A DNA stretch of 64,000 nucleotides from Alphaproteobacteria bacterium (GCA_027483355.1 JAIXUW010000292.1:222226-286225), one strand, 5' to 3'; counted from the stretch's first letter, positions 2,578-62,240 are shown. Program-made: numbers and translations. Notes: generated from the sequence alone by a model not told the origin.

Positions 2578-3426
2578 TTAATTCAACTTGACACGTTTGT
2601 TCGGACTGAAGTCCGGGGTAGTGTACAAAGCGGGCTGTTGGCCAACGAAAACAGGGGAGGACTCTTCTAGGAATTCTTTTATCTTCTGATCTGGTATAAA
2701 TGTTAACAATTCCACAGGCTCTTGCGTGCTAATCAAAGGAGACTGTTTTTCATTATGTATGATAAACCGCGATCCGCAGTGCCAGAGGAGAGATTTTTCC
2801 AACTCGGCCCAGCCACAGTCGGGATTCTTATACACAAATTCCTCTACTATACACGAGTAGTTGTATATATACGCCTGTGTCTTGCAACATGCATTAACTA
2901 CCAGCCGTGTGATTTTGACCATGTCATCGACGTCGACGTAGTAAAATTCGCGGGTGTACACACCCGCTCTCAAAAATGAATATAAAATTACTGGAGTGAT
3001 TTTTGCTGGCGCTTCAGAGTCCAATCCAAAATATAAAGTATGAAGACGCGAGCGGATTTTTGGAGCCAATTCGATGATTTTGGCAGCAGCCAGACAAAAC
3101 AGAGACTTTTCTGTTCTGGGTTCTAATATATCCAAAAATCTCTTTGCGTTCATTATACCGGCTGTAAAAGCTAGAACATGCCTGTAAAATCCAATTGTGT
3201 TTGTAGGATACGACGCGCCTATAGGCGCGGCTACGATTCCTCTTGACCCTTTTAAAGTCAAAGTTTTTGTTTCTCCGTTTTTTTCTTTCTTGACAATGTC
3301 AATGCTTGTAAAACGTGCAGTAGTTACATCCGAATACTTGGTGCGAGGAAACGCTTTTAGTAAGCCGTCCTGCAACGGTTCTGACAACGAGTCCCACTCC
3401 AAGTTCTCTAATTCAGAAATCGACAT
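2578..3426 (-). CDS. hypothetical protein, tandem paralog A (F-box-like N-terminus)
   Basis: 282-aa ATG ORF. The N-terminus LEWDSLSEPLQDGLLKAFPRTKYSDV aligns with LTWDTLPLVVQEVVFDVISRTEYSDI of the next gene (shared W-D-x-L ... R-T-x-Y-S-D). Confidence 0.65.
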   Translation of the reverse strand: MSISELENLEWDSLSEPLQDGLLKAFPRTKYSDVTTARFTSIDIVKKEKNGETKTLTLKGSRGIVAAPIGASYPTNTIGFYRHVLAFTAGIMNAKRFLDILEPRTEKSLFCLAAAKIIELAPKIRSRLHTLYFGLDSEAPAKITPVILYSFLRAGVYTREFYYVDVDDMVKITRLVVNACCKTQAYIYNYSCIVEEFVYKNPDCGWAELEKSLLWHCGSRFIIHNEKQSPLISTQEPVELLTFIPDQKIKEFLEESSPVFVGQQPALYTTPDFSPNKRVKLN

Positions 3427-3448
3427 TTGAGTTTATGCACACGCAAAT

Positions 3449-4348
3449 CTATGACAGCTTGCACCGTTTGGACCCTTGGACGACTGTTCTGGCGAGCAAC
3501 GCGTCGGCCTCTTCAATTTCGGCGGTTGTGGGGTACTGTAAATACGGCGCCATATTACTGCACCGCGAGCTGCACGTCTGCGTATATGTGCTGTGATTAT
3601 ACGTCATCTTGGAAATATGAACTTTGCGGCATCTGCGGAAGAGATCTTGAACGTCAGGCGGGTCAAAGGCGGCGACCGGGTCCACTGGGTCCCAACCCTT
3701 GATATAAACATCTTCGAAATGGGGCTCGGGGTCGTTCCACGACGTCATAACGAAACGGGCCTCGTAGTCATTCGGTCCTATGTCTTTATAGAGCATCTGA
3801 GCAAATCGAAAAAGGTCGTCTATTGCGCTGTAGTAGAACCCCACTTTTGCGTTGAAGTAGCCCGCAAAAGTGCATTCGCCGAGGTAAAGATCATTTTTCA
3901 ATCCTCGGACTTCAAAAAAGGATGAGATGGCGCTTTGGCGAAACCGGGAATTGTTCTTGAGCACGTGCAACGCGGCCAGGTCGCACAAAGACGGAACGTT
4001 GGCAGTTGCCTTGGACGCGTCAAATCGAGCTGGGTGATAAAAATAACTATACCCAGCCGAGTTTTGTTGAGAGAAACTGGGCAGAGCTTGAAACAAGGTA
4101 TTGTTTTCCTTAATGACAAAAGTGTCATTCTTTTTGCAATGGCTGATGATTAGATGCACAGGAAAAAGTATATATGACGTCAAGGAAGGGCATGGCGGGC
4201 TTGTGTCGTTTACACCTAGCCAATCGCCATACCATTTCAACCTCTGCACCGCAATGTCGCTGTACTCGGTGCGCGAAATGACGTCAAACACGACTTCTTG
4301 TACAACAAGAGGGAGAGTATCCCATGTCAACTTGGGTGTATTATCCAT
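3449..4348 (-). CDS. hypothetical protein, tandem paralog B (F-box-like N-terminus)
   Basis: 299-aa ATG ORF. LPLVVQEVVFDVISRTEYSDIAVQRLKW resembles an F-box (LP..i...If..l......l..v.k.W). Paralog of 2578..3426. Confidence 0.65.
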   Translation of the reverse strand: MDNTPKLTWDTLPLVVQEVVFDVISRTEYSDIAVQRLKWYGDWLGVNDTSPPCPSLTSYILFPVHLIISHCKKNDTFVIKENNTLFQALPSFSQQNSAGYSYFYHPARFDASKATANVPSLCDLAALHVLKNNSRFRQSAISSFFEVRGLKNDLYLGECTFAGYFNAKVGFYYSAIDDLFRFAQMLYKDIGPNDYEARFVMTSWNDPEPHFEDVYIKGWDPVDPVAAFDPPDVQDLFRRCRKVHISKMTYNHSTYTQTCSSRCSNMAPYLQYPTTAEIEEADALLARTVVQGSKRCKLS

Positions 4349-6615: not shown

Positions 6616-7689
6616 ATGGAACCACATAGATGTACAATAGAGCTACCAGACGACATTATATGCTTATGCATCTCGTATTCGACAATACCGTGGCTACGGC
6701 ACCTGCTTTCCAATCACACGAAGCGCATAATCGCCGCGAGCCCTAGGGAAAATGCAGATATGCATCTTTTTCCAAAATTGACACCGCTACGAGACGGAAT
6801 GGAGATTTTACAATCGGGCTCGGGATGGGAAAATGTTTATCTCAACTTTTTGGAGCCACCCGAGCGAATGGTTTTTATGGACATGGAAAATGAGATCTGG
6901 GCAAACATTATTTGGAACGCGGTTGAAAAAATGGCCATTGATTATTCTTCAACTCGAAACGAAAAAATGTTCAGACGGACAGCGCGGTTACATCTTCCCA
7001 CTTTCATGTCGTGTATGGCGCCAAAGCATGTCCAGGCTATAAGCAATGTATTTACAAACATCAGATATCTGACGATAAATGCGAAAGCAACCGCTTCGAG
7101 CATGGACAAACTGTGCCTGAACCATCTAAAACAGATTTGCATTTACGGCAAATGTCGTCAAGCGCCGCTGACAGGCTTTGATCCTCAGCTGCTTCCTTTA
7201 CTGGATTCGGTCAGACTGGACACATCTAACAGTTTGCAGAGCCTTCTCACGTTGTTCGCACACACAGGAGCGCGTATCTTTCATCTCGAACTGCATACGT
7301 ATACGGCCACGTCATGCATCAAAGAAACATTTCCAAATCTGCACACTCTGAGTTTGCATGAAATTTCTTCCAAAACTGACGAACTCGGCCTAAGATGCCA
7401 GATTATACTTCCAGTCATCGCCGTTTTTATACATTGTCCAAAACGCGAACTTGGGTTTAAAGTCCCGCTAAAACTTTTGCCCGGCGAAACAAAGGTCCAA
7501 AAACTACGAATTGTGGACAACGGGCATGAACATTCATGGGACGTTCACGAAGACAAGTTTGCGTCTTTCTTTCTTGGATGCGAACTGTTCTTCATAGCTT
7601 CAGCCGATATACGACCGGAAGAATACAAGAATATCGAAGAAGCCGCAAAGAGAACCGGCCGGACTGTGCATTTCATCTCGACCCCCTAA
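6616..7689 (+). CDS. F-box-like protein with leucine-rich C-terminal region
   Basis: ORF 6400..7689 overlaps the upstream divergent gene. An internal ATG at 6616 gives MEPHRCTIELPDDIICLCISYSTIPWLRHL (F-box-like). TATATAAG lies directly upstream (ctctatataagcacaATG). The remainder is leucine-rich (LxxLxL-like). Confidence 0.65.
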   Translation: MEPHRCTIELPDDIICLCISYSTIPWLRHLLSNHTKRIIAASPRENADMHLFPKLTPLRDGMEILQSGSGWENVYLNFLEPPERMVFMDMENEIWANIIWNAVEKMAIDYSSTRNEKMFRRTARLHLPTFMSCMAPKHVQAISNVFTNIRYLTINAKATASSMDKLCLNHLKQICIYGKCRQAPLTGFDPQLLPLLDSVRLDTSNSLQSLLTLFAHTGARIFHLELHTYTATSCIKETFPNLHTLSLHEISSKTDELGLRCQIILPVIAVFIHCPKRELGFKVPLKLLPGETKVQKLRIVDNGHEHSWDVHEDKFASFFLGCELFFIASADIRPEEYKNIEEAAKRTGRTVHFISTP

Positions 7690-7765: not shown

Positions 7766-8316
7766 ATGGAAATTGTAGACTCTAACCCTGAATGCGCCGC
7801 CGAGCCCGATCTCGCCATTACAACGGGCAATCCCTTCACGTTGCTTCCCGAGATTCGAGACAATTTGCTCAGTATTCTAATAGAGCAAGGATACTGCGAC
7901 ATTGCCAAACGCTTGTCGTTTATACTACGCCAGACCGAAAAGGAGTGGAATGTTTTGCAGAAAAAGCTCAATCGGCCACTTGTAAAACATTCAACCAGCC
8001 TCTAGAAAAATGGACGCCGAGTCCATCGTCGGCAAAAAGATGTATGTTCTCCGAAACCGAGTCTTTCAACCAAGATTTAAGTACATGGAACTGCGCTGAC
8101 ACAACGGGACAAGATATGGTTTACAACGCTTCGTCTTTTTCTTGCGAACATCTGCCCAGGCTCATTGGAATAGGTTGCCAATGCAAATTTGAAAATGACA
8201 TTCGCGTTTTTGTATGCGAGTACTGCAAATTGCATTTTGGGTGCGTCGGTACACCCCCTGAAACCGAGATTCCGCGTAGAACTGGACGTGTTTGGCGGCG
8301 AGCCCAACCACAATAG
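7766..8316 (+). pseudogene. F-box-like + DUF285-like (FNQxLxxW repeat) gene disrupted by a -1 frame change
   Basis: Frame A (7766..8005) encodes a good F-box (LLPEIRDNLLSILIEQGYCDIAKRLSFILRQTEKEWNVL). Frame B (open to 8316) continues with FAEKAQSATCKTFNQPLEKW...MFSETESFNQDLSTW, the repeat typical of DUF285/BspA-like proteins. The frames switch at or near the A5 run 7961-7965. I found no GT-AG interval of compatible phase. Confidence 0.5.
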
Positions 8317-8347
8317 AAAAAAATAGTCAAAGGTTGGACATTGAGCT

Positions 8348-8921
8348 ATGGAGCCCTCTTCGAATATAAGGCCTCACAGCGATTTGAGCGTTAAAATTAC
8401 TCCAGTTGCAGGCCCTCGCTTTATCTACGTTACAGGCCCCAGACGATGCGGCAAATCGAGTCTAGTGTCATTTTACTTGGACGCTCAAAAACGCAAAGCG
8501 TATCATTACCAAGCTCTCTGGCGTTCTTACGCAAAAGAGACAGACGTCATCGTCGACGGCACCAGAAGAAACATTATTAAGCTTTGGTATGACTCTGACT
8601 CCGATACAAGTTTATTGTCAGAATTCCGAGCGAAGTAGAGCGCGTGTGGATTGTAGGACGCGAACCCCGTTCTTTGCACGAGCGGCTAGAGCGGAAATTC
8701 CCAAACGAGATTGGGCGACCGCGGGCATGTCCATAGAAAGATTTGATCTTTCGCTCAATCTCTGGGATCCTGAAACAAAAGGATACAACGTCGATAAACT
8801 GCCGTGGGACCTTAAAGCGTCACCCGAGACCCTGTGGCCTGTTCTTCAGCGCCATGTGGACTTGGAAACCATGGTTCGCGATCTAGACAAAGAAGATACA
8901 TGTAAAGTGGCATCTGAATAA
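8348..8921 (+). pseudogene. decayed tandem copy of the P-loop NTPase gene at 9045..9635
   Basis: Three frames in succession align to the intact paralog. They are MEPS...GPRFIYVTGPRRCGKSSLV (frame of 8348), RIPSEVERVWIVG (second frame, about 8620-8666) and IPKRDWATAG...YNVDKLPWDLKASPETLWPVLQRHVDLETM (frame of 8589). This implies two -1 shifts, near 8618-8620 and at the C4 run 8665-8668. Confidence 0.6.
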
Positions 8922-9044: not shown

Positions 9045-9635
9045 ATGGAGCCATCTCTCGATAATTCTACTCCTTCCTCAAATGCAAAGCCTCCGGCCAA
9101 AGTGGCGTCTGCGCCCGGCCCTCGGTTCATCTTCCTCTACGGTCCCACGGGCTCTGGAAAGACCCGCCTCGTCGAATCGTATTTGAAATACCACAAAAGG
9201 AGCTTTATAAAGCTGGACACAAATTGGTTCAGGTACGACAAAGAGACCGACGTCATTTGCGAACGCACTGCAAAGGCCCCGATTACTTTGTCGTACGATC
9301 CAAAGGGAAACATGATCCACTATCGAGCAAGCATAAAAATACCGGAAACGGTTCAGCGTGTGTGGGTTATTGCGTCCGTCTTCAATTTTCGGTCGTTCAA
9401 GGCCTCTGATTTTGCACCACGCGATTGGTCTACTCCCGGCTCATCTGTAGAGCTCTTCCAAGTCGATTTTGACATTTGGAATCATGGAAAGCAGCGCTAC
9501 AATTTCGACAAACTGCCCTGGGACGTCAAGAAGTCGCCCGACACTCTGTGGCCCGTTATCGTCACGCATGTCGATTTGGAAACCATGTTCAAGGCGTGCG
9601 AGGACGAACAAGAAAAATTTGTTGATACTATGTAA
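9045..9635 (+). CDS. P-loop NTPase (Walker A GPTGSGKT), family undetermined
   Basis: ORF 8952..9635; the ATG at 9045 gives MEPSLD..., matching the MEPS start of the upstream copy. Walker A in FIFLYGPTGSGKTRLV. The later VWVIAS...PRDW layout is faintly reminiscent of SF3-type viral helicase domains, but no clear Walker B DD/DE is present. Confidence 0.7.
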   Translation: MEPSLDNSTPSSNAKPPAKVASAPGPRFIFLYGPTGSGKTRLVESYLKYHKRSFIKLDTNWFRYDKETDVICERTAKAPITLSYDPKGNMIHYRASIKIPETVQRVWVIASVFNFRSFKASDFAPRDWSTPGSSVELFQVDFDIWNHGKQRYNFDKLPWDVKKSPDTLWPVIVTHVDLETMFKACEDEQEKFVDTM

Positions 9636-9903: not shown

Positions 9904-10851
9904 ATGGAACCGGATACTAAATCGCATGACCCGACCGCTTCTTCCGAGAACGCAAACACGCCGAACGCTGGCGCCGTTGAATCGCGTGAATCGTGTGAAC
10001 CATGTGATTCTGTCATCTCGGAGAACAGTGCGCCACAAGAAACCGTAAAAGACAAATTGGAGCAAAGCCTTACATGCCCTGTGTGCATGACAATATGCGC
10101 GCCTCCTACCCAGAGCTGCGTCAACGGGCATTTGATATGCGCTACATGCAAATTGAAAATACCACAATGCCCTATATGTTCAGCCGTTTATGGTGCCCAA
10201 AACAAGCTTACGCGACAATTGGGATTGGAAAGTTTGGCCGAGTTCTCCGGAATCACGTGCAACTGCCCCAACGCTGCTCTAGGGTGCACTCTAACGTTCA
10301 AGTACGACGCCAAAGTTGTCAGAGAGCACCTTAAAACATGCGTCTATCGCGAAGTTTTCTGTCCATGTTGCGACAGGATTACAATGGTAAAAGATCTAGA
10401 TGACCATTACAAGAAAATGTTCGAAACGGAAAAGGTTGGTGTCCAGAACTTATACCACTACCACTCGCCCAACAACACTTTTACGTTTTCGGATAATGAT
10501 GGCGCGAATGCACGCCTCGGCAAAGATTCCATTTTCTTGAAACCTGGTACTATCATCAATTCAGTCGGCACGAAAAACCACACGTATTTCTACGCATATC
10601 ATTTGTCTACACCAGAGCAAAGCGGAAAATGGTGGTCATATTCCGTCACGCTGACCTCGGACAATTTTCCACCGCAGACGTTAAAAACGTTTACAGTGCA
10701 CCTGAAAACGGCCCAAAGCATATATAAACCTTTATGCTTGAAGTTGGATGAAAAGATGCTCAGAGAAGCAAGTAACAAAAAATTTCGATTTGAAACCAGC
10801 GCAGAAGACGTTGATCCCGAATACCTGCCAAGTCTTCAGAAATACGTTTAA
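9904..10851 (+). CDS. SIAH/SINA-type RING E3 ubiquitin ligase-like protein
   Basis: ORF 9811..10851; ATG at 9904 (MEPDTKSH...). RING: CPVCMTICAPPTQSCVNGHLICATCKLKIPQCPIC (compare the SIAH C3HC4 with C-x-GH-x-x-C). It is followed by a SIAH-type zinc finger, CNCPNAALGCTLTFKYDAKVVREHLKTCVYREVFCPCC...HYKKMF, and a C-terminal substrate-binding-like region. Confidence 0.8.
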   Translation: MEPDTKSHDPTASSENANTPNAGAVESRESCEPCDSVISENSAPQETVKDKLEQSLTCPVCMTICAPPTQSCVNGHLICATCKLKIPQCPICSAVYGAQNKLTRQLGLESLAEFSGITCNCPNAALGCTLTFKYDAKVVREHLKTCVYREVFCPCCDRITMVKDLDDHYKKMFETEKVGVQNLYHYHSPNNTFTFSDNDGANARLGKDSIFLKPGTIINSVGTKNHTYFYAYHLSTPEQSGKWWSYSVTLTSDNFPPQTLKTFTVHLKTAQSIYKPLCLKLDEKMLREASNKKFRFETSAEDVDPEYLPSLQKYV

Positions 10852-34608: not shown

Positions 34609-35832
34609 ATGCTCGACATAAGCCAGCCTATTCCAACAACACTTCCTGGAGACATAGTATTTGAAATAATCAAGTTCTTATCATGCTACATGCGTCTAGT
34701 GGACAGGGACCAACGAGAGAGAACGAGAAAGGACTCTCTGTGCTTTGAGCCTACGAGCAAGATACCAATCAACGTATTGTCAGAAAAAGATGGACACTCG
34801 GTCTTCCTCGATAATTTGGGATGGCTGGACTTCTATTTTCACGGCATATTTACTTCACTAGATCGCATCTTGCCCGACTTGGAGTACTGGCTCTCTAAAT
34901 CGTCATTGTATAAGATTTCGATAATAATCCGTCCTGGGTGGGAACCGTCTTTCTTGGAGTCATGCGCTGTAAGAAACCAACGATTTGTGCATCAAATACT
35001 TGGACGCGCACGGCATATTGTTTTTGGTTTCAGGGGATACACCGGAAAATATATGAGCGCTCTTGTGGATCTCATTTTAAGCGGAGTCTACCCGAATGTG
35101 ACCACGATTGCACTGAATGCTTCGATGACGAGTTATATTCCTAGCGAAAGGCTTTCTGCTGCACTTCCTAATCTCACAAAGATTGTACAACATGAAACTT
35201 CTGGCCAATATATGATGACAGACAAGAATGACCCCGTTCATTGGCGGAAAATCCCACAGGGGTATCTAACATTTTTTCCGAAATTGGAAGCGTTAGACAT
35301 ATCGGAGACTATTGAAGACGTGTTGCCATCAATCAAAACAGTGCGATTTGACGGCTGTAATTCGAAAATCGAACTGCATGCGTTTCCATCTGCTACAACC
35401 TACATTGCAAGTTGTCATGATTTGACGTCCAGCGTTTTTGAGAACCTTTCGAGACTAGGTCTTGGAGATAAGGACGCAAAAATCGTCGTTTGCACCGATT
35501 TCAGAGTGGACTCGGCGTTGTTCAGCGCCGAAGAGAAATCCCCAATCTTCAACGGTAAAATAGAAGTGCATATACAGATGAATTTTGTATTCGTGAAAAT
35601 GTCAATGCTCGAGCTCGAACGGACAACGGAGGACAAGAATGCATTTTTACAAAACATGGAGAGATTCATGAAGAACAACGGGATACAACATCTTGTATTA
35701 CGTTGCGGGCTGGAAGAGGTCATGGACACGGATTATGTAAAAACCCGCGCAAAATGGTGCATGGAACATAAGCATCCAGAATTGACAATCTCAATCGTCT
35801 GCGGATGTTGCAATGGCCTGTTCACGTCATAA
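34609..35832 (+). CDS. F-box-like protein with leucine-rich region
   Basis: 407-aa ATG ORF. N-terminal TLPGDIVFEIIKFLSCYMRLV. Same overall layout as 6616..7689 and 60867..62240. Confidence 0.65.
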   Translation: MLDISQPIPTTLPGDIVFEIIKFLSCYMRLVDRDQRERTRKDSLCFEPTSKIPINVLSEKDGHSVFLDNLGWLDFYFHGIFTSLDRILPDLEYWLSKSSLYKISIIIRPGWEPSFLESCAVRNQRFVHQILGRARHIVFGFRGYTGKYMSALVDLILSGVYPNVTTIALNASMTSYIPSERLSAALPNLTKIVQHETSGQYMMTDKNDPVHWRKIPQGYLTFFPKLEALDISETIEDVLPSIKTVRFDGCNSKIELHAFPSATTYIASCHDLTSSVFENLSRLGLGDKDAKIVVCTDFRVDSALFSAEEKSPIFNGKIEVHIQMNFVFVKMSMLELERTTEDKNAFLQNMERFMKNNGIQHLVLRCGLEEVMDTDYVKTRAKWCMEHKHPELTISIVCGCCNGLFTS

Positions 35833-43275: not shown

Positions 43276-45356
43276 ATGGGGGCTCAAACCCCATTTTCGG
43301 CCGTCGCTGTTTTTTTTGAATCTCTGCCGGAAGAACTCAAATTGACTGTGCGTTAAAACCCATTGCTTCTAAAACGTGTTCTGGCACTGACTCTTTGTTT
43401 TACGTATCTAGATCTTCTTCCTTTTGCCGTTTCGCAGTTTGAAAGCAGCGAGATTGGTCTGTAAAAAGTACGGTTCTATGCGCAAAAGTGCCAAACAAAG
43501 CCGTTGTTTTTTTTGTGACCTTGCACCTCGTATAGATGGTATCGAATTTCAATCGATCAAAGAATTTGGAAAAACTTGCATGAAAGATTCTTCGGGATAC
43601 CTCATTTCCCGCTGTACTCGACACACGACTTGGCGGAACAGCCCAAAAGCGTACCCAAAGCTGGCGCGAATACGTCGACGTTTCCTTCCAGCCCTCCCAT
43701 CATCTCATCTTCTGTGGAACCAAAACATGTTTTTTCATACGAGCCCGGCACGGACCGCGAGACGATTTTTCGTCGGTTGCATCGTGAATACAAACGCGTG
43801 AACAATCTCCAAGAGCGGTTGCTTTGGGCTATCGAAGGCCATTATTTTGAGCTTACAAAGCGGCTTGTGGAGAAAAAGGGCGCCGTGATCGAACGCGACA
43901 AGCCCAAAATGAGCTACGGTGCTCTGTACGCCGCTGCGAAAATTGGATGCGGACAGATCACAGCTTATTTGATTAATAAGGGCGCTAATATAAATGCATT
44001 GGCGGATGACAAATCGACACCGTTGTACATCGCGGCACAGAACGGGTGTATTGACTCTTTGAAATTGCTCATCAACGCCGGCGCTTCACTGGAGTGTGTT
44101 TTCAAGTACGTTTTCAAATTTTCATGTAAATATGCGATCTAACACGACTTTTGCACCGATAGTGATGGCTACACACCCCTCTACATTGCGTCCCAAACAA
44201 ATCGGGTGGAAGCCGTTCGACTTTTAGTCGACGCCAAAGCAAAAATCAATGCTTGTTGCTCTCAAGGTTCCACGCCTTTGTATATCGCCGCTCAACAGGG
44301 CCATTTGGAAGTCGCAAAGGTTTTAGTGTCCGCCGGCGCTAACATTGAATCCAAATTCAAAACGGGGTTTACTCCAATCTATGTCGCATCAAGAAACAGC
44401 CATTCGGCGATTGTAGAGTATTTGATTGAAAAAGGAGCGTCGGTCAACGCCAGTGACGGTGACGGATCGACGCCTCTTTACGTGGCATCCCAAAAGTGCG
44501 GTTTTGCGATTTTTATTCCAAACTACAATTGCATTATTCTAACAAACGTGTAAGCGCAGTGGCAGCATAGAATGTGTGCGGGTACTGCTTCAACACGGAG
44601 CTGATCACAGAATCGCCTTCATGAATGGATTCGCTCCGCTTTATATTGCTAGCCAAAATGGACACGCGGAAATTGTAGATCTTTTGTGCAAATCAGGCTC
44701 AGAGGTGAACCGCGTTGCGGACAACGACTTGACAGCGTTATACGTGGCCTGTCAAAACGGGCATGTCGGGGCTGTCGCGCGGCTGCTCAGCCACGGAGCC
44801 AATGCAGATGTTGTGTTCGACGCGGGTTATAGGCCACTTTACATTGCTTCCCAGAAGAACCATGTCGAAATCGTGGAATTGCTTGTCTCGCATGGCGCGC
44901 CTATCAACGCAGTCACGGGCAAGAAGGCAACCGCGTTATATGTTGCATGTCAAAAGGGCAATTTTCAAATTGTCAAATATCTTTTGGAACATGGAGCGGA
45001 TCCAGCGTTGCGGTTTCAAGTACGTTTTCGACGCCGCACTCCGGTTCTTTTTTACTTTCCATAATATCCAACACCTTATTTTCCCCTAGAACGGATTTAC
45101 ATGTCTGCATATTGCCGCGCAAGAAGGCAACGAAAGAGTAGTCGAGTATTTGCTAGAAAACACGAAAATCAACCCTTCAACAAAGTCGAATGATCAGAGA
45201 ATGGCAGCAGAAGTGGCAAAAAAGGCGACTATAACAAAAATAATCAGGGAGAAAATTGAGCAAATGTATACAAAGCCGGCACCCCATCCTGTGCAAACGC
45301 AGGCACTACAAAAACCTCGGTGCATGTGCCGAGAGTGTGTAGTCAGACGGTCTTAG
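43276..45356 (+). CDS. F-box + ankyrin-repeat protein, multi-exon (about 594 aa)
   Basis: Proposed exons are 43276..43347, 43412..43650, 43692..44105, 44163..44495, 44560..45019 and 45090..45356, totalling 1785 nt in frame.
- Exons 1+2 give MGAQTPFSAVAVFFESLPEELKLT|IFFLLPFRSLKAARLVCKKY, a canonical F-box.
- Later exons give about 11 ANK repeats (TPLYIAAQNGH..VV..LL..GA).
- Splicing restores the repeat register at every junction.
- The ORF-track pieces 43576, 44206, 44576 and 45150 all start on TTG/GTG, not ATG.
- The exon 2/3 junction is tentative. Confidence 0.75.
43348..43411 (+). other. spliceosomal-type intron (64 nt)
   Basis: GTGCGT...cactgactc (CTGAC about 20 nt from the 3' end)...TCTAG. 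It removes an in-frame TAA and joins the two halves of the F-box in phase 0. Confidence 0.7.
43651..43691 (+). other. candidate very short intron (41 nt, tentative)
   Basis: A frame change from the 43424 frame to the 43576 frame is required between about 43600 and 43700. GTACCC...tttccttccag gives the right phase. The alternative 43614..43660 (47 nt) also fits, so this is not resolved. Confidence 0.3.
44106..44162 (+). other. spliceosomal-type intron (57 nt)
   Basis: GTACGT...tctaacac...gatAG. It joins ...LECVF + N + DGYTPLYIASQ across a split AA|T codon. Confidence 0.8.
44496..44559 (+). other. spliceosomal-type intron (64 nt)
   Basis: GTGCGG...ttctaacaaac...gcgCAG. It joins ...TPLYVASQ + N + GSIECVRVLLQHGAD. 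Confidence 0.8.
45020..45089 (+). other. spliceosomal-type intron (70 nt)
   Basis: GTACGT...atccaacacc...ttttcccctAG (good polypyrimidine tract). It joins ...GADPALRFQ|NGFTCLHIAAQEGN in phase 0. Confidence 0.8.
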
Positions 45357-47530: not shown

Positions 47531-47535
47531 TGGTC

Positions 47536-47540
47536 TTTTT
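47536..47540 (+). terminator. T5 run, candidate RNA polymerase III terminator for the tRNA pair
   Basis: TTTTT lies 6 nt after the tRNA-like gene, and there is no T-run between the two tRNAs. Confidence 0.4.
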
Positions 47541-47571
47541 ATCCTTTTCCCCCTTTGTTTGTTTATTACAG

Positions 47572-48346: not shown

Positions 48347-48435
48347 TTTGCATTTCCGAACGTTGTTTATTTGTCGTTCATCACTCGCAACACGCATTTA
48401 CATTTTTTTCTATTGTTTTGAAAACAAGCGTTAGA

Positions 48436-48795: not shown

Positions 48796-48806
48796 TACAG
48801 AAAAGA

Positions 48807-48983
48807 TCAATGAGTGACCTCCAATACGGCCATGCGATCATACAAATTGCGGATTCGATAATCGATTAGCTTGCGTTCGGCGTCGCTCGACGTTCTGGAC
48901 TTTTTTTGTTCAAGCGCTCTCACTTCTCTCTGCAGTTGTTCAATCATTCTTCCTTGCCAATTGTCGCTACTGGGAGAAGACAT
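48807..48983 (-). CDS. possible small coiled-coil protein (58 aa, below the ORF-track cutoff)
   Basis: My translation is MSSPSSDNWQGRMIEQLQREVRALEQKKSRTSSDAERKLIDYRIRNLYDRMAVLEVTH*. It fills an otherwise empty spacer and converges on 48436..48795. Confidence 0.35.
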   Translation of the reverse strand: MSSPSSDNWQGRMIEQLQREVRALEQKKSRTSSDAERKLIDYRIRNLYDRMAVLEVTH

Positions 48984-49163
48984 TTTTGTTCTATAAAGTC
49001 AATCTTGCGATTTTTTGCACTGGCAAACCACGAAGAGCACAGTTCAAGTGAAAAAAACTTTCCTTTTGGGGGTGCTTTGTGAACGCGCGAGCTCTGCGGC
49101 CGAAAATCGGAGTTTCCATGTGCTGGCCGATTATTTTTAGAATTGATTCACATAAATACGCGA

Positions 49164-49294
49164 AATAACGCAACGTAACGCAGCGCGACGCAACGCGGCG
49201 CACCAGCGCGCAAAGGACCGCAGCGCAGCGCAACGCAACGCGACGCACCGCAACCCACCGCAGCGCAGCGCGACGCACCGCAGCGCAACGCAGC
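49164..49294. repeat. degenerate pentanucleotide array (CGCAR/CGCGA/CGCAC)n, about 26 units
   Basis: cgcaa cgtaa cgcag cgcga cgcaa cgcgg cgcac ... cgcag cgcaa cgcag, with strict 5-nt phasing visible across thirteen 10-nt blocks. It lies in the divergent spacer between 48983(-) and 49394(+). It creates three spurious overlapping minus-strand ORFs (AALRC-type). Confidence 0.85.
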
Positions 49295-49393
49295 TCTTGA
49301 AATTCCCTTGCCGTTTATATTTAACAAACAATAAATCCATAATAATACGACAAATACATTCTCAATATTAAGTCTAAAACGTTTCTGCAAAAT

Positions 49394-50062
49394 ATGGATT
49401 TAGAAGAGAGCAAACCACGAAAGAAAAGACCGCTGCCGTATATTGCATCGGGTACTTTTGACCTTTTGGACAATATATTCGAACCAAATCCAAATCTCAA
49501 AAATACATCTAAGCGCGCAAAACATAACCCTGCAACGGCTGTGACGCTCAGTGTCCCAACTCGCTCGACCGTGATACATCGATTCGGAAAGGCAAAAGCG
49601 GTCGCATTCGTCAAATCTGATATTTTGGGGTTCTCCGAACAAGACATTCAACTATCTTTGCATTGGGCGGAGTCGGACACGACGGAGCTCGGAAAATGGT
49701 ACACAGGTTTATCTGCTGCCAACTTTGCGCCCAAAAGTTTGGAAATGACTTCCAACACCAACGAAATGGAGATATATTACACTATCCCCAAATCGTATGA
49801 ACCCAGAGTGGCACAGGAAGTCCGGCAAAATCTATTAGTGCCCGGAACCAAGGTAACCGCGTTTTTAAAAGCGAATCAACAAGAATTTTCATTTGTGATA
49901 TCTCGTTTGCAACAATCGACCGCGCAACGGCAGCACAGCGGAGTTATGTTTATACTCGCCGCGGAATCTTCCGGAAACGTGTCCGCCCAGCCCGCCAACT
50001 TCTTTAAAAAGCCGGCACCCAGACGTGAAATACGTAAAAATGCGTTTGGAATCCATTTATAA
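49394..50062 (+). CDS. hypothetical protein with N-terminal NLS-like SKPRKKRP
   Basis: 222-aa ATG ORF (MDLEESKPRKKRPLPY...). No other motif recognised. Confidence 0.6.
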   Translation: MDLEESKPRKKRPLPYIASGTFDLLDNIFEPNPNLKNTSKRAKHNPATAVTLSVPTRSTVIHRFGKAKAVAFVKSDILGFSEQDIQLSLHWAESDTTELGKWYTGLSAANFAPKSLEMTSNTNEMEIYYTIPKSYEPRVAQEVRQNLLVPGTKVTAFLKANQQEFSFVISRLQQSTAQRQHSGVMFILAAESSGNVSAQPANFFKKPAPRREIRKNAFGIHL

Positions 50063-50178
50063 ATGTACAATTGAAATGTAAAATTTTGCTTTTTATGTGT
50101 GACTCTTTCCCAAAAAGGAAGGTGCGACGTCGGCGTTACTTTTATATGTCGTCTTTGACTCCTACTATACATTATATA

Positions 50179-50919
50179 CTACAAATTCACCGTTTCAAGT
50201 CCGTTCCGTGTAGTCGAACCGTTGTCGGGAACAAACCACGTTAGCGGAGCTGAAGAATTTCTGCGAGGGCTGCGTGGTGGCGATCGCGGCCGTCTTCCTT
50301 CAATTTCCATTTTATTCCAAGCCATGTTATCGAGATAAATTCGAAAATGCAAGCCGATCTTTTCCGCTGAAACTCCGGACGAGTTTAAAAGTCGCAGCGC
50401 CTGCGACAGACTGTGATTTCTGTACTTGACCAAAAAATATACAATGTTGGACACTGATCGCGACATTCCTTCTCTGCAGTGTATCAAAACAGTGTATTTT
50501 TCCCGCAAAAGCCGGTCGATTGTACTGGCCGACGTTTTGAACTTTTCTTTGTTGAATTCAAAGTCGTCCTCTATGTTGTAATCATGTAGCGCTAATTCTC
50601 TGCCAGTCTCTTTTACTGGGTCGGCCAATGAAATAATATGGGTAATTCCAAGCTCGCTAAATGTTTTAAGAGCTTCTTCAGAAGCAATAGTTGCATTGGA
50701 CAAATACAAACGACCTTGGTTTGGTTCGTCAAGCAAGATCTCAGTAGGCTTTTCAAATCCAGTAAACGGAAGTGGTTCAAACGCAATGTATTGAACTTGC
50801 GGCGTTACTTTGCGCTTTTTTGTAGGCGATTCGTAGCCAGAGTTCGATTCGTAATCGTCCTCCATTGCGATTAGCCTCGCTTCTTTTGTGTGGTTTCCTG
50901 TAAATGCAATCATTCGCAT
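50179..50919 (-). CDS. dual-specificity (Cys-based) protein phosphatase
   Basis: ORF 50179..50922 starts on GTG; ATG at 50919, with an alternative MEDDYES at 50865. Active-site loop VLIHCREGMSRSVSNIVYFLV (HCxxGxxRS). An upstream D in IEDDFEF is a possible general acid. PTKKRKV NLS-like motif. Confidence 0.8.
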   Translation of the reverse strand: MRMIAFTGNHTKEARLIAMEDDYESNSGYESPTKKRKVTPQVQYIAFEPLPFTGFEKPTEILLDEPNQGRLYLSNATIASEEALKTFSELGITHIISLADPVKETGRELALHDYNIEDDFEFNKEKFKTSASTIDRLLREKYTVLIHCREGMSRSVSNIVYFLVKYRNHSLSQALRLLNSSGVSAEKIGLHFRIYLDNMAWNKMEIEGRRPRSPPRSPRRNSSAPLTWFVPDNGSTTRNGLETVNL

Positions 50920-51012
50920 CACATGTGATTATTTATTTGTATACTCCGAAAGCTAAAAAAAAAGAAGGCGAGAGTCAAGTCCGACCCGGGACCGCGTTCT
51001 ATTTTTAGCTCG

Positions 51013-51032
51013 CCACCTACTCAGGTAGGTGG
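51013..51032. repeat. perfect 8-bp stem / 4-nt loop hairpin (ccacctac tcag gtaggtgg)
   Basis: Read directly from the sequence. It abuts the iteron array. The half-site CCACCTACT recurs at 52312..52320. Confidence 0.7.
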
Positions 51033-51080
51033 ACTCGGCCTCGACTCTGGCTCGACTCGGGTTCGACTCTGGGGCGACTC
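51031..51080. promoter_or_regulatory. five iterons containing (C/G)GACTC at exact 11-bp spacing
   Basis: GACTC occurs at 51032, 51043, 51054, 51065 and 51076 (ggactcggcct cgactctggct cgactcgggtt cgactctgggg cgactc). One copy per helical turn, in an ORF-poor region. Confidence 0.55.
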
Positions 51081-51115
51081 GCTCTCGCGCGTATTTTTTG
51101 TTCTATCATGTAAAA

Positions 51116-51418
51116 ATGTGTTTGATAAACCATATACATAGCAAATATATACACGTCCGGGCGCGTAAAATTTGCTGTGGGGAGAAAAGTCGGGAGCGTC
51201 GCAACGACCTCGTTGCGATCGTAAAAACTTTTTGCCCGCAGGCGATTCGCAGTTTTATAGAGACATGTCTTAAATCATGCGCGCAAATTAGGTGCACAGA
51301 TATAATAACAAATACCGCGGGTTGGATGCAAAGGACCGTAAGCACAATGCGTTTTGTGCGGCAGACTTTGAATTACTCAGCTTCTTCACGCCGCGTGATT
51401 TTACCACATGTTTATTAG
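51116..51418 (+). CDS. possible small Cys-rich protein (100 aa), best-preserved member of a locally triplicated decayed family
   Basis: MCLINHIHSKY...RRNDLVAIVKTFCPQA. Related truncated copies start at 51704 (MNLIGGINDRGKCNDP...) and 52058 (MCLGKIDCDWAKTNPNEVVAIGKTFRA*). Confidence 0.25.
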   Translation: MCLINHIHSKYIHVRARKICCGEKSRERRNDLVAIVKTFCPQAIRSFIETCLKSCAQIRCTDIITNTAGWMQRTVSTMRFVRQTLNYSASSRRVILPHVY

Positions 51419-52417
51419 CACAATATATAAGAATACACGTTTGAAATACAAACTCGCTGGTTTTATTCAAATCCGCGCTATACAATCTTGGTGCTAGCAT
51501 GCAAAAGCGTCGTTCGGCGCTATACCATTTTTTTGATCCGCGCAAAAATTCATATACACTTTCACATATCTAGTTAGGAATTTACAAATCAATCAGAGGT
51601 CTTAAATACGGCGAGATGCACGGATAATTCTACACGCGACCAAATGCATCGGCAAATGATATTATACTCAATTCCGTCCATAACTTTCATGTTGAAAATC
51701 AAAATGAATTTGATTGGCGGGATAAACGATAGAGGCAAGTGCAACGACCCAACAAGCGGTCTCACGATGACTGGAAACTTTTTTGCGGTGGGACCCGTCC
51801 GGGTGTACCCTCCCGGGCGAAAAAGTACGAACGTCGTTAGGACGTTGCGGGTTCCTCTATCGTTTTTCTTTCAGGACAAATTCTCAGAACATCTGATTTT
51901 GTATACTGTTGACTAATCTGAATATAATTGCATCCGCCAACGCATTGTATCGGTGCCAGGTCGATTTCATGCGACTTTGGGGTCGAATCTACGCCGGGCG
52001 ATTTAAGAACCGAAACCATTTTTTTAGTCATATTCATATTGTATAGATCAATAAAAAATGTGTTTGGGGAAAATCGATTGCGATTGGGCCAAAACTAACC
52101 CAAACGAGGTCGTTGCGATTGGGAAAACTTTTCGGGCCTAGGCAACGTCACACATTTCCGGGGATAATTTCTTTTACTACATAAAAATACATGTAACAGT
52201 ATACAATTGGTTGGAGCAAAAATGTCGGGGCGGAGAGCGCGAACCGAGCGTTTTTGTCCGCGGTCGCCCAGAAAAAAAAACCCAAAAGGCGCGTTAAGGC
52301 GCCGCTCGCCCCCACCTACTAATGTTGCGCGCCTGCGCCGTTCTTCAAGTATCTTAAGTGCAATTTTCACATTTGTATGCGTCCATATATCTTGTGAACC
52401 TCATTTTCATTTGAAGA

Positions 52418-52792
52418 ATGGAGAATCCAATGTCCGCGAGCGAGAAAACGCAACGTTTGCTGGCTGCGCTAGTGCAACAGAACGCGGTTATCCTAAAAGA
52501 GTTTGGAAAAATCGCAGTGACCATGTCACGCATGTGCAAGAAAGTGGATGCTTATATTGCGACAACAGCGACAAAGGAGATGGAGAGGCGTTTTTCCGAC
52601 GCTGCCACCGACGACTGTGCGGTAACTAAGACTCGTGCCAGTGAGCTTGCGCCGCCGCCCATTTCATCCAACATGACACGACAATTGAGTCGGTTGACGG
52701 AACTTGCTAATTATGAAGAAAATTTGGATATTGCGCGCGCGTATGATGCGCAGCCACTCAGTGATCTTGTCTCAAACCTGGGTACGCTCTGA
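52418..52792 (+). CDS. hypothetical protein (124 aa)
   Basis: ATG ORF (MENPMSASEKTQRLLAALVQQNAVILKEF...), predicted helical. No motif recognised. Confidence 0.5.
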   Translation: MENPMSASEKTQRLLAALVQQNAVILKEFGKIAVTMSRMCKKVDAYIATTATKEMERRFSDAATDDCAVTKTRASELAPPPISSNMTRQLSRLTELANYEENLDIARAYDAQPLSDLVSNLGTL

Positions 52793-52835
52793 TATTTTTT
52801 CTGTTTTTACATATAACAATAACTGACTATGTCAA

Positions 52836-60724: not shown

Positions 60725-60866
60725 ATATGTTCAATAGAATTTTGTATAATTTGAGCGGCAAGAAATTTTTGCATACAGGACAAAAACAGGGGACTTTGGT
60801 GTTTTCTTCGCGTGGCTCCCTGCAAACGTTTTTCAGTCTCGCGCCCCGTAAATTCATCTACACACT

Positions 60867-62240
60867 ATGGACCCATCTCTCCCCGAGTCTATCCTGTCAC
60901 GCATGGGCGTTCCTAGCGAAATTGTGGCGATTATATTTGACTACATTCCTCTGGACCGTCTCGGAAAGGTCCTCTCTACATGCAAAAACGGTTTGGCACT
61001 GATACCCGTGGATTACATTAGAGTGCTTGATGTCACGCGATTTGAATCGTGGAATGACGTCATGCGAGCCCTTGTCGCGATTCCCATTTCTCGCGTCTCC
61101 GTTTTCAAGGTTTCGCACTCTACATACAAGATGACCTGGGACGATATTCCGACATATTGTACGAGCAAATTACTTCAAATTTTTGCACCTCTTATGGAGT
61201 CTGAGTTGAGTGTTGACTGGAAACTGTTTGAAAAGTGGGCCTTTCACTACAACGGCAACCTGAGTTTGCATCGACTTTTCGATAGATTCAATGCATTTTC
61301 AGTCTCGCGTGTTTACCAGCCGGCGATGCCTACAACGGAACCCACTGCTCCAATTTTTAACAAACCTGGAAGGTCAATACGGGTTATGTACCTACCTTTC
61401 AGCTGCCCGTTTGCTTCAAAGCCTTCCACATTACATGCATTGGTCAGGAAATGCAAGAAGATTGACACGGAATATAAATGCGTTCTTTCTCGTCGCCCGC
61501 TCAGTTTACACGCGCAACTCGAAAGGTGTTGGTGCCGTCAAATCACCGAGCCCGCCGTGAAGACGAAAAAGCGAAAAATCTTTTTGCAGCACACGGTTGT
61601 TTATTCTCACGGGCCCAAGTGCCTGCCTGGCATTATCGCCAATGTGCACAAGCTTGAGAAGGCGAAAATCAAACTTTGCGTGCACCCTGAAGATATGCAC
61701 AAGCAACCCGTGGAAGTCTGGGATGCTGTTTTGGACAATGGGCTGTACAACATTACCAAGGTGATATGTTTGCTACGCGAGATTGTCCGTGGAAATATGT
61801 CGGCAGAGCACGCGACGCATTTGGCCGGAAAGATTCTTTCTGTCATGTTATCCGCTCCAAGAAATGCGGAGATGCCAGCGTTTACCAATTACGACATCTG
61901 CCCCGTCGCAATGCGCTGTGTGTACTCAAAGTTTCAAGAATTGAAAGCCGAATACAGCAATGAATATTCGGCCGAAGTTTCAGAGAGACTTGACTACATT
62001 GAAAGCAGCATGGCTGCGTGGTGGAAAGATTCGTGCCGCGTTGTCAAAAACGACGTCGATTTTTTGCGCGCATGCATGAGAGAGGAGGACGGAGACATTT
62101 TGAAAAGGATGCTTTTCTCGGTCGATTCGGACAAGAAACTGATCGAGGTCGAAGACGGCAACGAGGATGCAGCCAGCAGTAGCAGCAGCTCTTCGTACTC
62201 GATTTATTCTATGGATTCTGACAACGAGTCTGACTATTAA
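60867..62240 (+). CDS. F-box-like protein with acidic/Ser-rich C-terminus
   Basis: 457-aa ATG ORF. MDPSLPESILSRMGVPSEIVAIIFDYIPLDRLGKVLSTCKNG (F-box-like). The tail is EDAASSSSSSSYSIYSMDSDNESDY. Confidence 0.65.
   Translation: MDPSLPESILSRMGVPSEIVAIIFDYIPLDRLGKVLSTCKNGLALIPVDYIRVLDVTRFESWNDVMRALVAIPISRVSVFKVSHSTYKMTWDDIPTYCTSKLLQIFAPLMESELSVDWKLFEKWAFHYNGNLSLHRLFDRFNAFSVSRVYQPAMPTTEPTAPIFNKPGRSIRVMYLPFSCPFASKPSTLHALVRKCKKIDTEYKCVLSRRPLSLHAQLERCWCRQITEPAVKTKKRKIFLQHTVVYSHGPKCLPGIIANVHKLEKAKIKLCVHPEDMHKQPVEVWDAVLDNGLYNITKVICLLREIVRGNMSAEHATHLAGKILSVMLSAPRNAEMPAFTNYDICPVAMRCVYSKFQELKAEYSNEYSAEVSERLDYIESSMAAWWKDSCRVVKNDVDFLRACMREEDGDILKRMLFSVDSDKKLIEVEDGNEDAASSSSSSSYSIYSMDSDNESDY

What the first reader, a model, noticed from the sequence alone, without database searches (positions are those of the whole stretch)
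2578..62240. Expansion of F-box-like N-termini (at least 7 genes) together with a SIAH-type RING ligase: a ubiquitin-system hijacking repertoire
The following genes all open with an LP-x-(E/D)-(I/L)... hydrophobic helix pattern of F-box type: 2578, 3449, 6616, 7766, 34609, 43276 and 60867. Examples are LPDDIICLCISY, LPEIRDNLLSIL, LPGDIVFEIIKFL, LPEELKLTIFFLLPFRSLKAARLVCKKY and VPSEIVAIIFDYIPLDRL.

Their C-terminal regions differ: leucine-rich, DUF285-like, ankyrin, or orphan. A SIAH/SINA-like E3 sits at 9904-10851.

Many adaptors with variable substrate-binding ends fit redirection of host SCF ligases, as known for poxvirus ANK/PRANC, Legionella AnkB and F-box families in some giant viruses. 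The density (7 in 64 kb) and the N-terminal F-box + ANK order are notable.
Basis: partly seen in the sequence, partly recalled or inferred. Interest (0 to 1): 0.58.

Follow-up and report, generated by a model that had tools for sequence, protein, structure and literature searches.

The report
Two real F-box genes plus SIAH
Of the seven genes proposed to start with an F-box, two clearly do (one is an intron-split F-box–ankyrin gene), two share only the first-helix motif and three show nothing; with the genuine SIAH-type RING ligase nearby this is an ordinary ubiquitin toolkit for a large DNA virus, not a seven-gene expansion.

Summary
After five introns are removed, 43276-45356 encodes a canonical F-box plus about 10 ankyrin repeats (Pfam F-box-like 6e-12, Ank_2 4e-117). 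Gene 60867 has a probable divergent F-box: Pfam 14.6 bits, below threshold; own F-box HMM P=1.3e-5; hhalign 92%.

Genes 34609 and 6616 match only 13-15 residues of helix 1 (LPxDI...I..[FY]L), with hhalign 39% and 12%. That is suggestive, not proof. Genes 3449, 2578 and 7766 do not differ from background.

The DUF285 assigned to 7766 lies in another reading frame, so that gene is disrupted. "Leucine-rich" C-termini are not confirmed; 34609 has only a weak FNIP-like match.

Gene 9904-10851 has a SIAH-type RING and zinc finger (Sina_RING above threshold; SIAH1 structure 2.7e-10). No SIAH substrate-binding domain was detected.

Genes 6616 and 34609 have no homologue among 5.8 billion proteins, so no paralogue family was detectable for those two. 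The other candidates could not be searched.

The window is dense (about 91% coding) and mostly ORFan, which looks like a virus, but its source is unidentified.

F-box, ankyrin and RING genes are well known in giant viruses, so this is a new member of a known kind.

The parts
43276..45356 (+). F-box + ankyrin-repeat gene. It has 6 exons (43276-43347, 43412-43467, 43536-44105, 44163-44495, 44560-45019, 45090-45356) and encodes 585 aa. The F-box is residues 14-59, encoded across exons 1-3 (about 43315-43584).
   Evidence: The splice model restores one ORF of 1758 nt. The introns are 57-70 nt, GT[AG]CG[TG]...YAG. Pfam F-box-like 6.3e-12, F-box 2.2e-8, Ank_2 4.3e-117. The N-terminus alone gives 3e-13.
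60867..62240 (+). Probable divergent F-box protein of 457 aa. The F-box-like region is residues 14-41 (about 60906-60989). The conserved Trp of helix 3 is missing, and the C-terminal 400 aa is orphan with a Ser/acidic tail.
   Evidence: Pfam F-box-like E=0.028, 14.6 bits, below the 24.3 cut-off. Own HMM P=1.3e-5. N-terminus 17.0 bits, above all 10,400 shuffles. hhalign 92.4%, P=5e-7, 28 columns. It is the third-best of 2317 six-frame fragments, after the 43276 exons.
34609..35832 (+). Orphan 407-aa protein. Residues 11-25 (TLPGDIVFEIIKFLS, about 34639-34683) match F-box helix 1 only. It may contain a few FNIP/IP22-like LRR units around residues 215-285.
   Evidence: Own HMM P=0.0028, 14 columns. 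N-terminus 6.8 bits, empirical p=6e-4. hhalign 39.5%, 15 columns. No Pfam hit. CroV588 (6nyr) E=4.6e-4, but no single repeat is significant. No homologue among 5.8 billion proteins. AF2 pLDDT 44, fold search meaningless.
6616..7689 (+). Orphan 357-aa protein. Residues 9-21 (ELPDDIICLCISY, about 6640-6678) match F-box helix 1 only.
   Evidence: Own HMM P=0.016. N-terminus 4.2 bits, p=0.005. hhalign 12.4%, 13 columns. No Pfam hit. Only itself found in the protein search. AF2 pLDDT 34.
3449..4348 (-). Orphan 299-aa protein, tandem neighbour of 2578. They share a 30-residue N-terminal motif (L-x-W-D-[ST]-L...R-T-x-Y-S-D). Not supported as an F-box.
   Evidence: Own HMM P=0.088. N-terminus p=0.03, not significant after correction. 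hhalign 3.2%. N-terminal similarity to 2578 has E=4e-4 as a pairwise comparison.
2578..3426 (-). Orphan 282-aa protein with no LP motif. Not supported as an F-box.
   Evidence: No Pfam hit. Not among the top 30 HMM scores. hhalign 0.8%.
7766..8316 (+). Disrupted gene. A 79-aa ORF (7766-8005) is followed by a DUF285 repeat ORF in another frame (7792-8316). The N-terminus is not supported as an F-box.
   Evidence: Translation and sequence. DUF285 7.7e-10, 39 bits above the 25 cut-off, on the 7792 frame only. HMM P=0.09 and hhalign 0.7% for the N-terminus.
9904..10851 (+). SIAH/SINA-type RING E3-like protein of 315 aa. The RING is residues 58-92 (about 10075-10179) and the SIAH-type zinc finger is residues 117-173 (about 10252-10422). 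The C-terminal 140 aa is unassigned.
   Evidence: Sina_RING 8.8e-9, 35.8 bits above the 29.3 cut-off. Sina_ZnF 3.2e-5, 24.7 bits below the 32 cut-off. Human SIAH1 chain 9g0l_A E=2.7e-10 over residues 52-149. The C-terminal 140 aa has no Pfam hit at E<=1.

Best explanation
The span holds a small ubiquitin-ligase toolkit, not a seven-member F-box family.

(1) An intron-containing gene encodes an N-terminal canonical F-box followed by about 10 ankyrin repeats. By analogy with all characterised F-box proteins, the F-box would dock on SKP1 of a CUL1-RBX1 ligase, and the ankyrin solenoid would select the substrates to be ubiquitinated. This step is inferred.

(2) Gene 60867 carries a diverged F-box (helices 1-2 and the start of helix 3) on an orphan C-terminal domain. 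It probably works the same way with a different substrate.

(3) Gene 9904 is a SIAH-type RING plus zinc-finger protein. It would recruit an E2 directly. Its C-terminal half is unrelated by sequence to the SIAH substrate-binding domain.

(4) Genes 34609 and 6616 have only the LPxDI-hydrophobic first helix. I put about 40% on their being degenerate F-boxes.

(5) Genes 3449, 2578 and 7766 are unrelated orphans. 3449 and 2578 share their own N-terminal motif, and 7766 is frameshifted.

The surrounding DNA is most likely a large eukaryotic dsDNA virus with a nuclear phase, so these proteins would act on the host's ubiquitin system. Domain identities are shown. SKP1 or E2 binding, the targets and the viral origin are inferred.
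For: Domains: Pfam hits for spliced 43276 and for 9904, and the SIAH1 PDB match.

Graded F-box support comes from three partly independent tests:
- Pfam.
- Own 42-position HMM run without filters, Z=1: 5.7e-23, 1.3e-5, 0.0028, 0.016, 0.088, 0.09 and >0.1, with shuffle controls.
- hhalign: 99.6, 92.4, 39.5, 12.4, 3.2, 0.8 and 0.7%.

A six-frame scan finds no further hidden F-box. The HMM training set is 98% Pfam F-box-like.

Virus-like context:
- 91-92% coding outside 42.3-52.8 kb, with a median intergenic spacer of 115 nt.
- Most of the ~37 ORFs scanned have no significant Pfam family, and none is a housekeeping gene.
- The intron-containing gene has the same GC3 and codon usage as the orphans.

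Precedent:
- Ankyrin, MORN and F-box expansions and spliceosomal introns in Pandoraviridae (PMC5995976).
- F-box-like/ankyrin and Kelch links to ubiquitin ligases across Nucleocytoviricota (PMC10583209).
- SIAH1-type genes in giant-virus MAGs (PMC12710325).
Against: No SKP1, cullin, ubiquitin or viral hallmark gene lies in the window, so neither the SCF link nor the viral nature is shown directly.

60867 is below Pfam's gathering score and lacks the conserved Trp.

For 34609 and 6616, noise in the six-frame scan reaches 6-7 bits. Their helix-1 matches are therefore not individually distinguishable from chance. The motif-enrichment test is post hoc.

Five introns in one gene is far more than the ~1.2 per gene reported for pandoraviruses (PMC5995976), and fits a cellular gene.

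Structure prediction failed (pLDDT 34 and 44), so there is no fold evidence.
Confidence: 0.7

Rival explanations
1. One reading: all seven genes are F-box adaptors with variable substrate-binding ends. They would form an expanded family that redirects host SCF ligases, but are too diverged for HMMs.
For: N-terminal LPx[DE][IL] is enriched: 4 observed against 0.24 expected. 3449 has LP and KWY at the spacing seen in the F-box of 43276 (sequence).
Against: Five of seven have no Pfam hit even at E<=10. 3449, 2578 and 7766 score at background in the unfiltered HMM and hhalign tests, and 2578 lacks LP altogether. Of the pairs compared (6616 vs 34609; all ORFs by BLASTP), only the N-termini of 2578 and 3449 are similar. 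6616 and 34609 have no paralogue anywhere in the protein collection, which includes this genome's own ORFs.
Confidence: 0.07
2. Four F-box proteins: 34609 and 6616 are genuine but degenerate F-box proteins with LRR/FNIP-like C-termini, like the F-box + FNIP-repeat proteins of mimivirids. They would add to 43276 and 60867.
For: Both helix-1 matches sit at residues 9-25, the position expected for an N-terminal F-box. Empirical p is 6e-4 and 0.005. Two extra N-terminal motifs arise by chance with p=0.027. 34609 has a weak FNIP-like match to CroV588 (E=4.6e-4), an LRR type described in PMC9525666. The low-confidence AF2 model shows an alternating strand/helix pattern.
Against: Only 13-15 of 42 HMM columns align, and helices 2-3 are not recognisable. 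No Pfam LRR, FNIP or F-box hit. Comparable scores occur in non-coding frames. The AF2 models are unusable.
Confidence: 0.35
3. The contig is cellular: a compact or fast-evolving eukaryote, or host DNA with an endogenised virus. The F-box-ANK, SIAH-like, MESH1-like, phosphatase, kinase, subtilase and RCC1 genes would then be ordinary cellular genes and nothing is hijacked.
For: The F-box-ANK gene has five spliceosomal-type introns with uniform splice signals, and the neighbouring HD/MESH1-like gene has two. There are tRNA genes. All recognisable domains are eukaryote-type. No viral hallmark gene is in the window. There are no relatives in IMG/VR.
Against: About 91% coding with spacers of tens of bases, and same-strand genes 32-50 nt apart. 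Most of the ~37 ORFs scanned have no significant Pfam family, including proteins of 1151-1809 aa, and none of the ORFs is a housekeeping gene. Two ORFs tested have no homologue in 5.8 billion proteins. Composition is uniform across intron-containing and intronless genes.
Confidence: 0.2

Closest known systems
Pandoraviridae ankyrin / MORN / F-box multigene families (PMC5995976)
   Same: A large, ORFan-rich DNA genome with F-box and ankyrin proteins and spliceosomal introns that imply a nuclear phase. The presumed role is as adaptors for host ubiquitin ligases.
   Different: Pandoraviruses have clusters of more than 20 paralogues in tandem. Here there are two supported F-box genes with no detectable paralogy. 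GC is about 47% here; I recall about 60% or more for pandoraviruses. One gene here has five introns, against about 1.2 per gene there. No sequence relationship was established.
Legionella pneumophila AnkB (own knowledge; reviewed in PMC7542358, which I found but did not read)
   Same: An N-terminal F-box followed by ankyrin repeats, the same domain order as 43276.
   Different: AnkB is a short bacterial effector with two or three ANK repeats and a C-terminal CaaX farnesylation box. 43276 has about 10 ANK repeats, no CaaX end (…CVVRRS) and introns.
Poxvirus ANK/PRANC proteins and chlorovirus Skp1-binding ankyrin proteins (Mercer 2005 cited in PMC10583209; chloroviruses PMC7019647, found but not read)
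   Same: Virus-encoded ankyrin proteins that plug into SKP1-CUL1.
   Different: In those, the F-box-like (PRANC) motif is C-terminal and truncated. Here it is N-terminal and full-length, with Pfam F-box-like columns 1-46 of 47 matched.
Mimivirid / Dictyostelium F-box + FNIP (FGxxFN LRR) proteins; CroV588 structure 6NYR (PMC9525666)
   Same: This is the possible architecture of 34609, and of 7766 with its DUF285 repeats: a short N-terminal F-box-type helix followed by 22-residue LRR-like units.
   Different: 34609 has no FGxxFN motif and no Pfam FNIP hit, only a summed 22.5-bit match. The DUF285 of 7766 is out of frame.
SIAH1 / Drosophila SINA E3 ligases
   Same: The RING and first SIAH zinc finger align with human SIAH1 (E=2.7e-10). 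SIAH1-type genes have been reported in giant-virus MAGs (PMC12710325).
   Different: No recognisable TRAF-like substrate-binding/dimerisation domain. There is a 57-residue N-terminal extension.

Membership tests
F-box (Pfam PF00646 / PF12937) | Match to the curated F-box HMM above the gathering score | tested here: not met
   Met by 1 of 7. Spliced 43276 scores 45.5-49.8 bits against the 24.3 cut-off. 60867 scores 14.6 bits, below the cut-off. 6616, 34609, 7766, 2578 and 3449 have no hit at E<=10.
F-box (Pfam PF00646 / PF12937) | All three helices alignable (LP...I..L / L..L / VCK.W...), tested without speed filters and for this hypothesis only | tested here: inconclusive
   43276 aligns over 42 of 42 columns. 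60867 aligns over columns 3-28 (P=1.3e-5; hhalign 92%). 34609 and 6616 align over columns 2-15 only (P=0.003 and 0.016). 3449, 2578 and 7766 are at background.
F-box (Pfam PF00646 / PF12937) | Joined to a separate substrate-binding domain | tested here: inconclusive
   Met for 43276, which has about 10 ANK repeats. The C-termini of 60867, 6616, 2578 and 3449 have no family. 34609 has only a weak FNIP-like match. For 7766 the DUF285 is in another frame.
F-box (Pfam PF00646 / PF12937) | Binds SKP1 | not testable with these tools
   No complex prediction is available, and no SKP1 gene is in the window.
SIAH / SINA E3 ligase | SIAH-type C3HC4 RING | tested here: met
   Sina_RING 35.8 bits, above the 29.3 cut-off. 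SIAH1 9g0l_A E=2.7e-10.
SIAH / SINA E3 ligase | Pair of SIAH zinc fingers | tested here: inconclusive
   Sina_ZnF E=3.2e-5 but 24.7 bits, below the 32 cut-off. There are also weak zf-TRAF hits.
SIAH / SINA E3 ligase | C-terminal TRAF-like substrate-binding and dimerisation domain | tested here: not met
   Residues 176-315 give no Pfam family at E<=1. The PDB match stops at residue 149. The fold was not tested.
Poxvirus-type ANK/PRANC | Ankyrin repeats N-terminal and a truncated F-box-like motif at the C-terminus | tested here: not met
   In 43276 the F-box is at residues 14-59 and the ANK repeats follow. There is no PRANC hit.
FNIP / FGxxFN LRR (for 34609) | Tandem 22-residue repeats with the FGxxFN motif, matched by Pfam FNIP | tested here: not met
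   No Pfam hit. The CroV588 match totals 22.5 bits with no single significant repeat, and no FGxxFN is present in the aligned segments.
DUF285 (for 7766) | DUF285 repeats in the same reading frame as the proposed F-box | tested here: not met
   DUF285 scores 39 bits, above the 25 cut-off, but on frame 7792-8316. ORF 7766 stops at 8005. The only GT...AG between them is 16 nt.

The most novel reading that the evidence does not exclude
The window belongs to an undescribed lineage of large nuclear-phase DNA virus. No relatives were found in IMG/VR, JGI metagenomes or GTDB genomes, and the two ORFs that could be searched have no homologue in 5.8 billion proteins. In this reading, the LPxDI-type N-termini of 6616 and 34609 (and perhaps 3449, 2578 and 7766) would be a private, minimal SKP1-docking helix that has lost helices 2-3: a stripped-down viral F-box analogous to the truncated PRANC motif. 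It would sit alongside a multi-intron F-box-ANK gene taken from the host.
Probability: 0.12. Interest if true: 0.6.

Novelty: new member of a known kind. Interest (0 to 1): 0.3.

Why it matters
If the source is a virus, it carries at least two SCF adaptors and one RING E3. This adds another lineage to the many large DNA viruses that interfere with host ubiquitination, but it does not change how that is understood.

The practical lesson is about method. A short LPxE[IL] motif at an N-terminus is not enough to call an F-box. Also, the only canonical F-box here was invisible to ORF-based scanning because it is split over three exons.

The more unusual aspects are side observations:
- a gene with five spliceosomal introns and an intron-containing MESH1-like HD gene, inside otherwise intronless, 91%-coding, ORFan-rich DNA;
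- no detectable relatives of that DNA in the collections searched.

Tried and rejected
- The word-indexed homologue search with the 78-aa F-box found no candidates because the query was too short, and cost one search.
- Homologue searches for 34609 and 6616 returned only themselves. No alignments could be built for profile or structure work.
- AlphaFold2 on single sequences gave pLDDT 34 (6616) and 44 (34609). Foldseek on the latter gave TM<=0.31 and unrelated enzymes, and was discarded.
- PDB sequence searches of 6616 and 60867 gave nothing below E=1.
- I tried to identify the source. Exact look-ups show only an unnamed NCBI contig of 292,368 bp and a Logan contig from SRR16126875.
- No paper mentions that run or that contig length.
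- There are no relatives in IMG/VR, JGI metagenomes, GTDB genomes or phage records.
- I tested for general Pol II-type signals. TATAWA is upstream of 4 of 38 genes and AATAAA downstream of 5 of 38, too few to be a rule.
- I considered an intron joining 7766 to the DUF285 frame. It was rejected because the only GT..AG is 16 nt, against 57-70 nt for the real introns.
- I considered 3449 an F-box because its LP-to-KWY spacing matches. It was rejected because its HMM and hhalign scores are at background.
Full report
**What is at the coordinates**

First, the peptide quoted for 43276 is not contiguous. The ORF is broken by stops. Reading the DNA shows short GT...AG introns.

A six-exon model restores one 1758-nt reading frame of 585 aa. 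The exons are 43276-43347, 43412-43467, 43536-44105, 44163-44495, 44560-45019 and 45090-45356. The five introns are 57-70 nt long. All begin GT[AG]CG[TG] and end YAG, several have CTAAC- or CTGAC-type branch motifs, and their GC is 35-44%.

Second, 7766 is only a 79-aa ORF. The DUF285 match lies in ORF 7792-8316, in another frame. The only GT..AG between the two is 16 nt, so this is a frameshifted or disrupted gene.

Third, 2578 has no LP motif, and 3449 and 7766 do not fit LP-x-[ED]-[IL].

- Full-length proteins and isolated N-termini were scanned at permissive E-values.
- Only the spliced 43276 N-terminus is a significant F-box: F-box-like 3e-13 and F-box 1.1e-9. In the full protein these are 6.3e-12 and 2.2e-8, next to Ank_2 at 4.3e-117.
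- 60867 gives a sub-threshold F-box-like hit: E=0.028, 14.6 bits against a cut-off of 24.3.
- 6616, 34609, 7766, 2578 and 3449 give no F-box-type hit even at E<=10.

**Targeted test**

HMMER's filters drop weak hits, and Pfam E-values are corrected for 24,736 models. I therefore built a dedicated F-box model.

A full HMMER search of 1.84 billion representatives with the 43276 F-box gave 100 proteins. Of these, 98 are Pfam F-box-like and 97 are Pfam F-box. Their 141 domains gave a 42-position HMM with consensus [42 protein letters not shown].

| Gene | HMM P, unfiltered, Z=1 | HMM columns | First 61 aa vs 10,400 shuffles | hhalign vs F-box alignment |
|---|---|---|---|---|
| 43276 | 5.7e-23 | 1-42 | 72.1 bits | 99.6% |
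| 60867 | 1.3e-5 | 3-28 | 17.0 bits, above every shuffle | 92.4% (28 columns) |
| 34609 | 0.0028 | 2-15 | 6.8 bits, p=6e-4 | 39.5% (15 columns) |
| 6616 | 0.016 | 2-13 | 4.2 bits, p=0.005 | 12.4% (13 columns) |
| 3449 | 0.088 | – | 1.5 bits, p=0.03 | 3.2% |
| 7766 | 0.09 | – | below the top 15 | 0.7% |
| 2578 | not in the top 30 | – | below the top 15 | 0.8% |

A six-frame scan of 2317 ORF fragments recovers only the 43276 exons and 60867. Noise there reaches 6-7 bits. So no further split F-box is hidden in the window, and the helix-1-only matches are not individually above noise. Forced alignment shows the same grading.

Pairwise phmmer against the 100 F-box proteins aligns the 60867 N-terminus to the F-box of many of them. 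The others find nothing.

**Is the motif more than chance?**

[LV]Px[ED][ILV] occurs within the first 30 residues of 4 of 48 proteins, against 0.24 expected. No shuffle out of 5000 reaches 4.

Two of these four are the supported F-boxes. Two further occurrences arise by chance with p=0.027.

This supports a real N-terminal signal for 6616 and 34609, but the motif was defined from these same genes. I rate them at about 40% likely to be degenerate F-boxes.

**C-terminal regions**

- Ankyrin is confirmed for 43276.
- "Leucine-rich" is not confirmed. No LRR or FNIP family hits 6616 or 34609.
- 34609 has a summed 22.5-bit match (E=4.6e-4) to the FGxxFN-LRR protein CroV588. No single repeat is significant, and the FGxxFN signature is absent (PMC9525666).
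- 6616 and 34609 are singletons in 5.8 billion proteins.
- They show only marginal similarity to each other (E=0.037 as a pairwise comparison).
- 2578 and 3449 share only a 30-residue N-terminal motif (E=4e-4 pairwise).

There is therefore no evidence of a paralogous family.

Structure prediction without alignments failed (pLDDT 34 and 44). The fold search on it was meaningless.

**The SIAH-like gene**

9904-10851 has a Sina_RING above the gathering score and a Sina_ZnF below it. It aligns with human SIAH1 over residues 52-149 (E=2.7e-10).

The last 140 residues match nothing. It is therefore a SIAH-type RING/zinc-finger protein, not a demonstrated full SIAH orthologue.

**Context**

- The window is 85% coding overall. 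It is 91-92% coding outside 42.3-52.8 kb, with a median spacer of 115 nt.
- Besides the genes above, recognisable domains are:
  - Kelch + RCC1
  - subtilase
  - dual-specificity phosphatase
  - a weak kinase hit
  - a P-loop
  - an HD/MESH1-like domain

.
- The other ORFs scanned have no family, including proteins of 1151, 1311 and 1809 aa.
- No housekeeping gene and no viral hallmark gene is present.
- The intron-bearing gene has the same GC3 and codon usage as the orphans.
- The source is an unannotated NCBI contig of 292,368 bp, also seen in Logan run SRR16126875.
- For three long ORFs there are no relatives in IMG/VR, and for the 1809-aa ORF none in JGI metagenomes or GTDB genomes.

The density and ORFan content favour a large eukaryotic DNA virus with a nuclear phase. 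A cellular origin remains possible, at about 20%.

**Mechanism**

Shown: the domain identities.

Inferred from the established biology of these families:
- the 43276 and 60867 proteins dock on SKP1-CUL1-RBX1 through the F-box and present substrates through ankyrin repeats or an orphan domain;
- the 9904 protein recruits an E2 through its RING.

If the genome is viral, these would redirect host ubiquitination.

**Comparison with known systems**

- F-box, ankyrin, MORN and Kelch repeat proteins are already described as abundant in giant viruses (PMC5995976, PMC5753266, PMC10583209).
- RING E3s are also described in giant viruses (PMC10583209).
- SIAH1-type genes have been noted in giant-virus MAGs (PMC12710325).
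- The order F-box then ANK is found in 4 of the 100 public relatives and in Legionella AnkB (own knowledge).

Nothing here departs from the known kind.

**Verdict**

There are two F-box proteins, possibly four, plus a SIAH-type RING protein. This is a new member of a known kind, of modest interest.

Noticed in passing
window 43276-45356 (+): The F-box-ANK gene carries five spliceosomal-type introns of 57-70 nt with uniform GT[AG]CG[TG]...YAG signals, in DNA whose other genes appear intronless. That is many more introns per gene than the ~1.2 reported for pandoraviruses (PMC5995976). Codon usage equals that of the orphan genes.
   Followed up: yes
window 45373-46353 (+): The next gene, 17 nt downstream, is an HD_4 / MESH1-like (RelA/SpoT-type hydrolase) gene split by two introns (Pfam HD_4 5.7e-20 after splicing). 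The first intron may use a non-GT donor. This is an unusual gene for a virus, if the source is one.
   Followed up: partly
window 47376-47530 (+): A tRNA-His(GTG) is followed 4 nt later by a second tRNA-like gene with an odd 4-base anticodon call by ARAGORN. Rfam confirms only the first.
   Followed up: partly
window 42300-52800: This 10.5-kb stretch is only about 55% coding, against about 91% elsewhere. It holds the intron-containing genes, the tRNAs, short tandem repeats (49167-49292, 51032-51081) and a dual-specificity phosphatase gene (50179-50919).
   Followed up: partly
window 7766-8921 (+): Two neighbouring genes look disrupted by frameshifts. One is 7766-8005 with DUF285 ORF 7792-8316. 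The other is 8348-8638 with 8589-8921, which together match the intact P-loop gene 9045-9635 (42-46% identity). They are pseudogenes or sequencing errors in A-runs.
   Followed up: partly
window 18599-26040 (-): Two tandem giant paralogues (1151 and 1311 aa, 21% identity over about 1100 residues) have no Pfam family. They are separated from each other and from the next gene by only 32-50 nt.
   Followed up: no
window 14466-18566 (-): A 1366-aa protein combines Kelch repeats (N-terminal) and RCC1 repeats (C-terminal). Its central region is encoded by degenerate 12/24/36/108-nt tandem repeats (16027-17039).
   Followed up: no
window-wide: The two ORFs searched (6616, 34609) have no homologue among 5.8 billion proteins. 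Three long ORFs have no relative in IMG/VR, and the 1809-aa ORF has none in JGI metagenomes or GTDB genomes. The source contig (292,368 bp, NCBI, unannotated) seems to represent an undescribed lineage. Many proteins carry NLS-like basic motifs (PRKKRRW, KKRKV, PPKRRK).
   Followed up: partly
window 2578-4348 (-): The tandem genes 2578 and 3449 share an N-terminal L-x-W-D-[ST]-L...R-T-x-Y-S-D motif and a basic C-terminal end (KRVKLN / KRCKLS; the latter resembles a CaaX box). It is a private two-member family of unknown function.
   Followed up: partly
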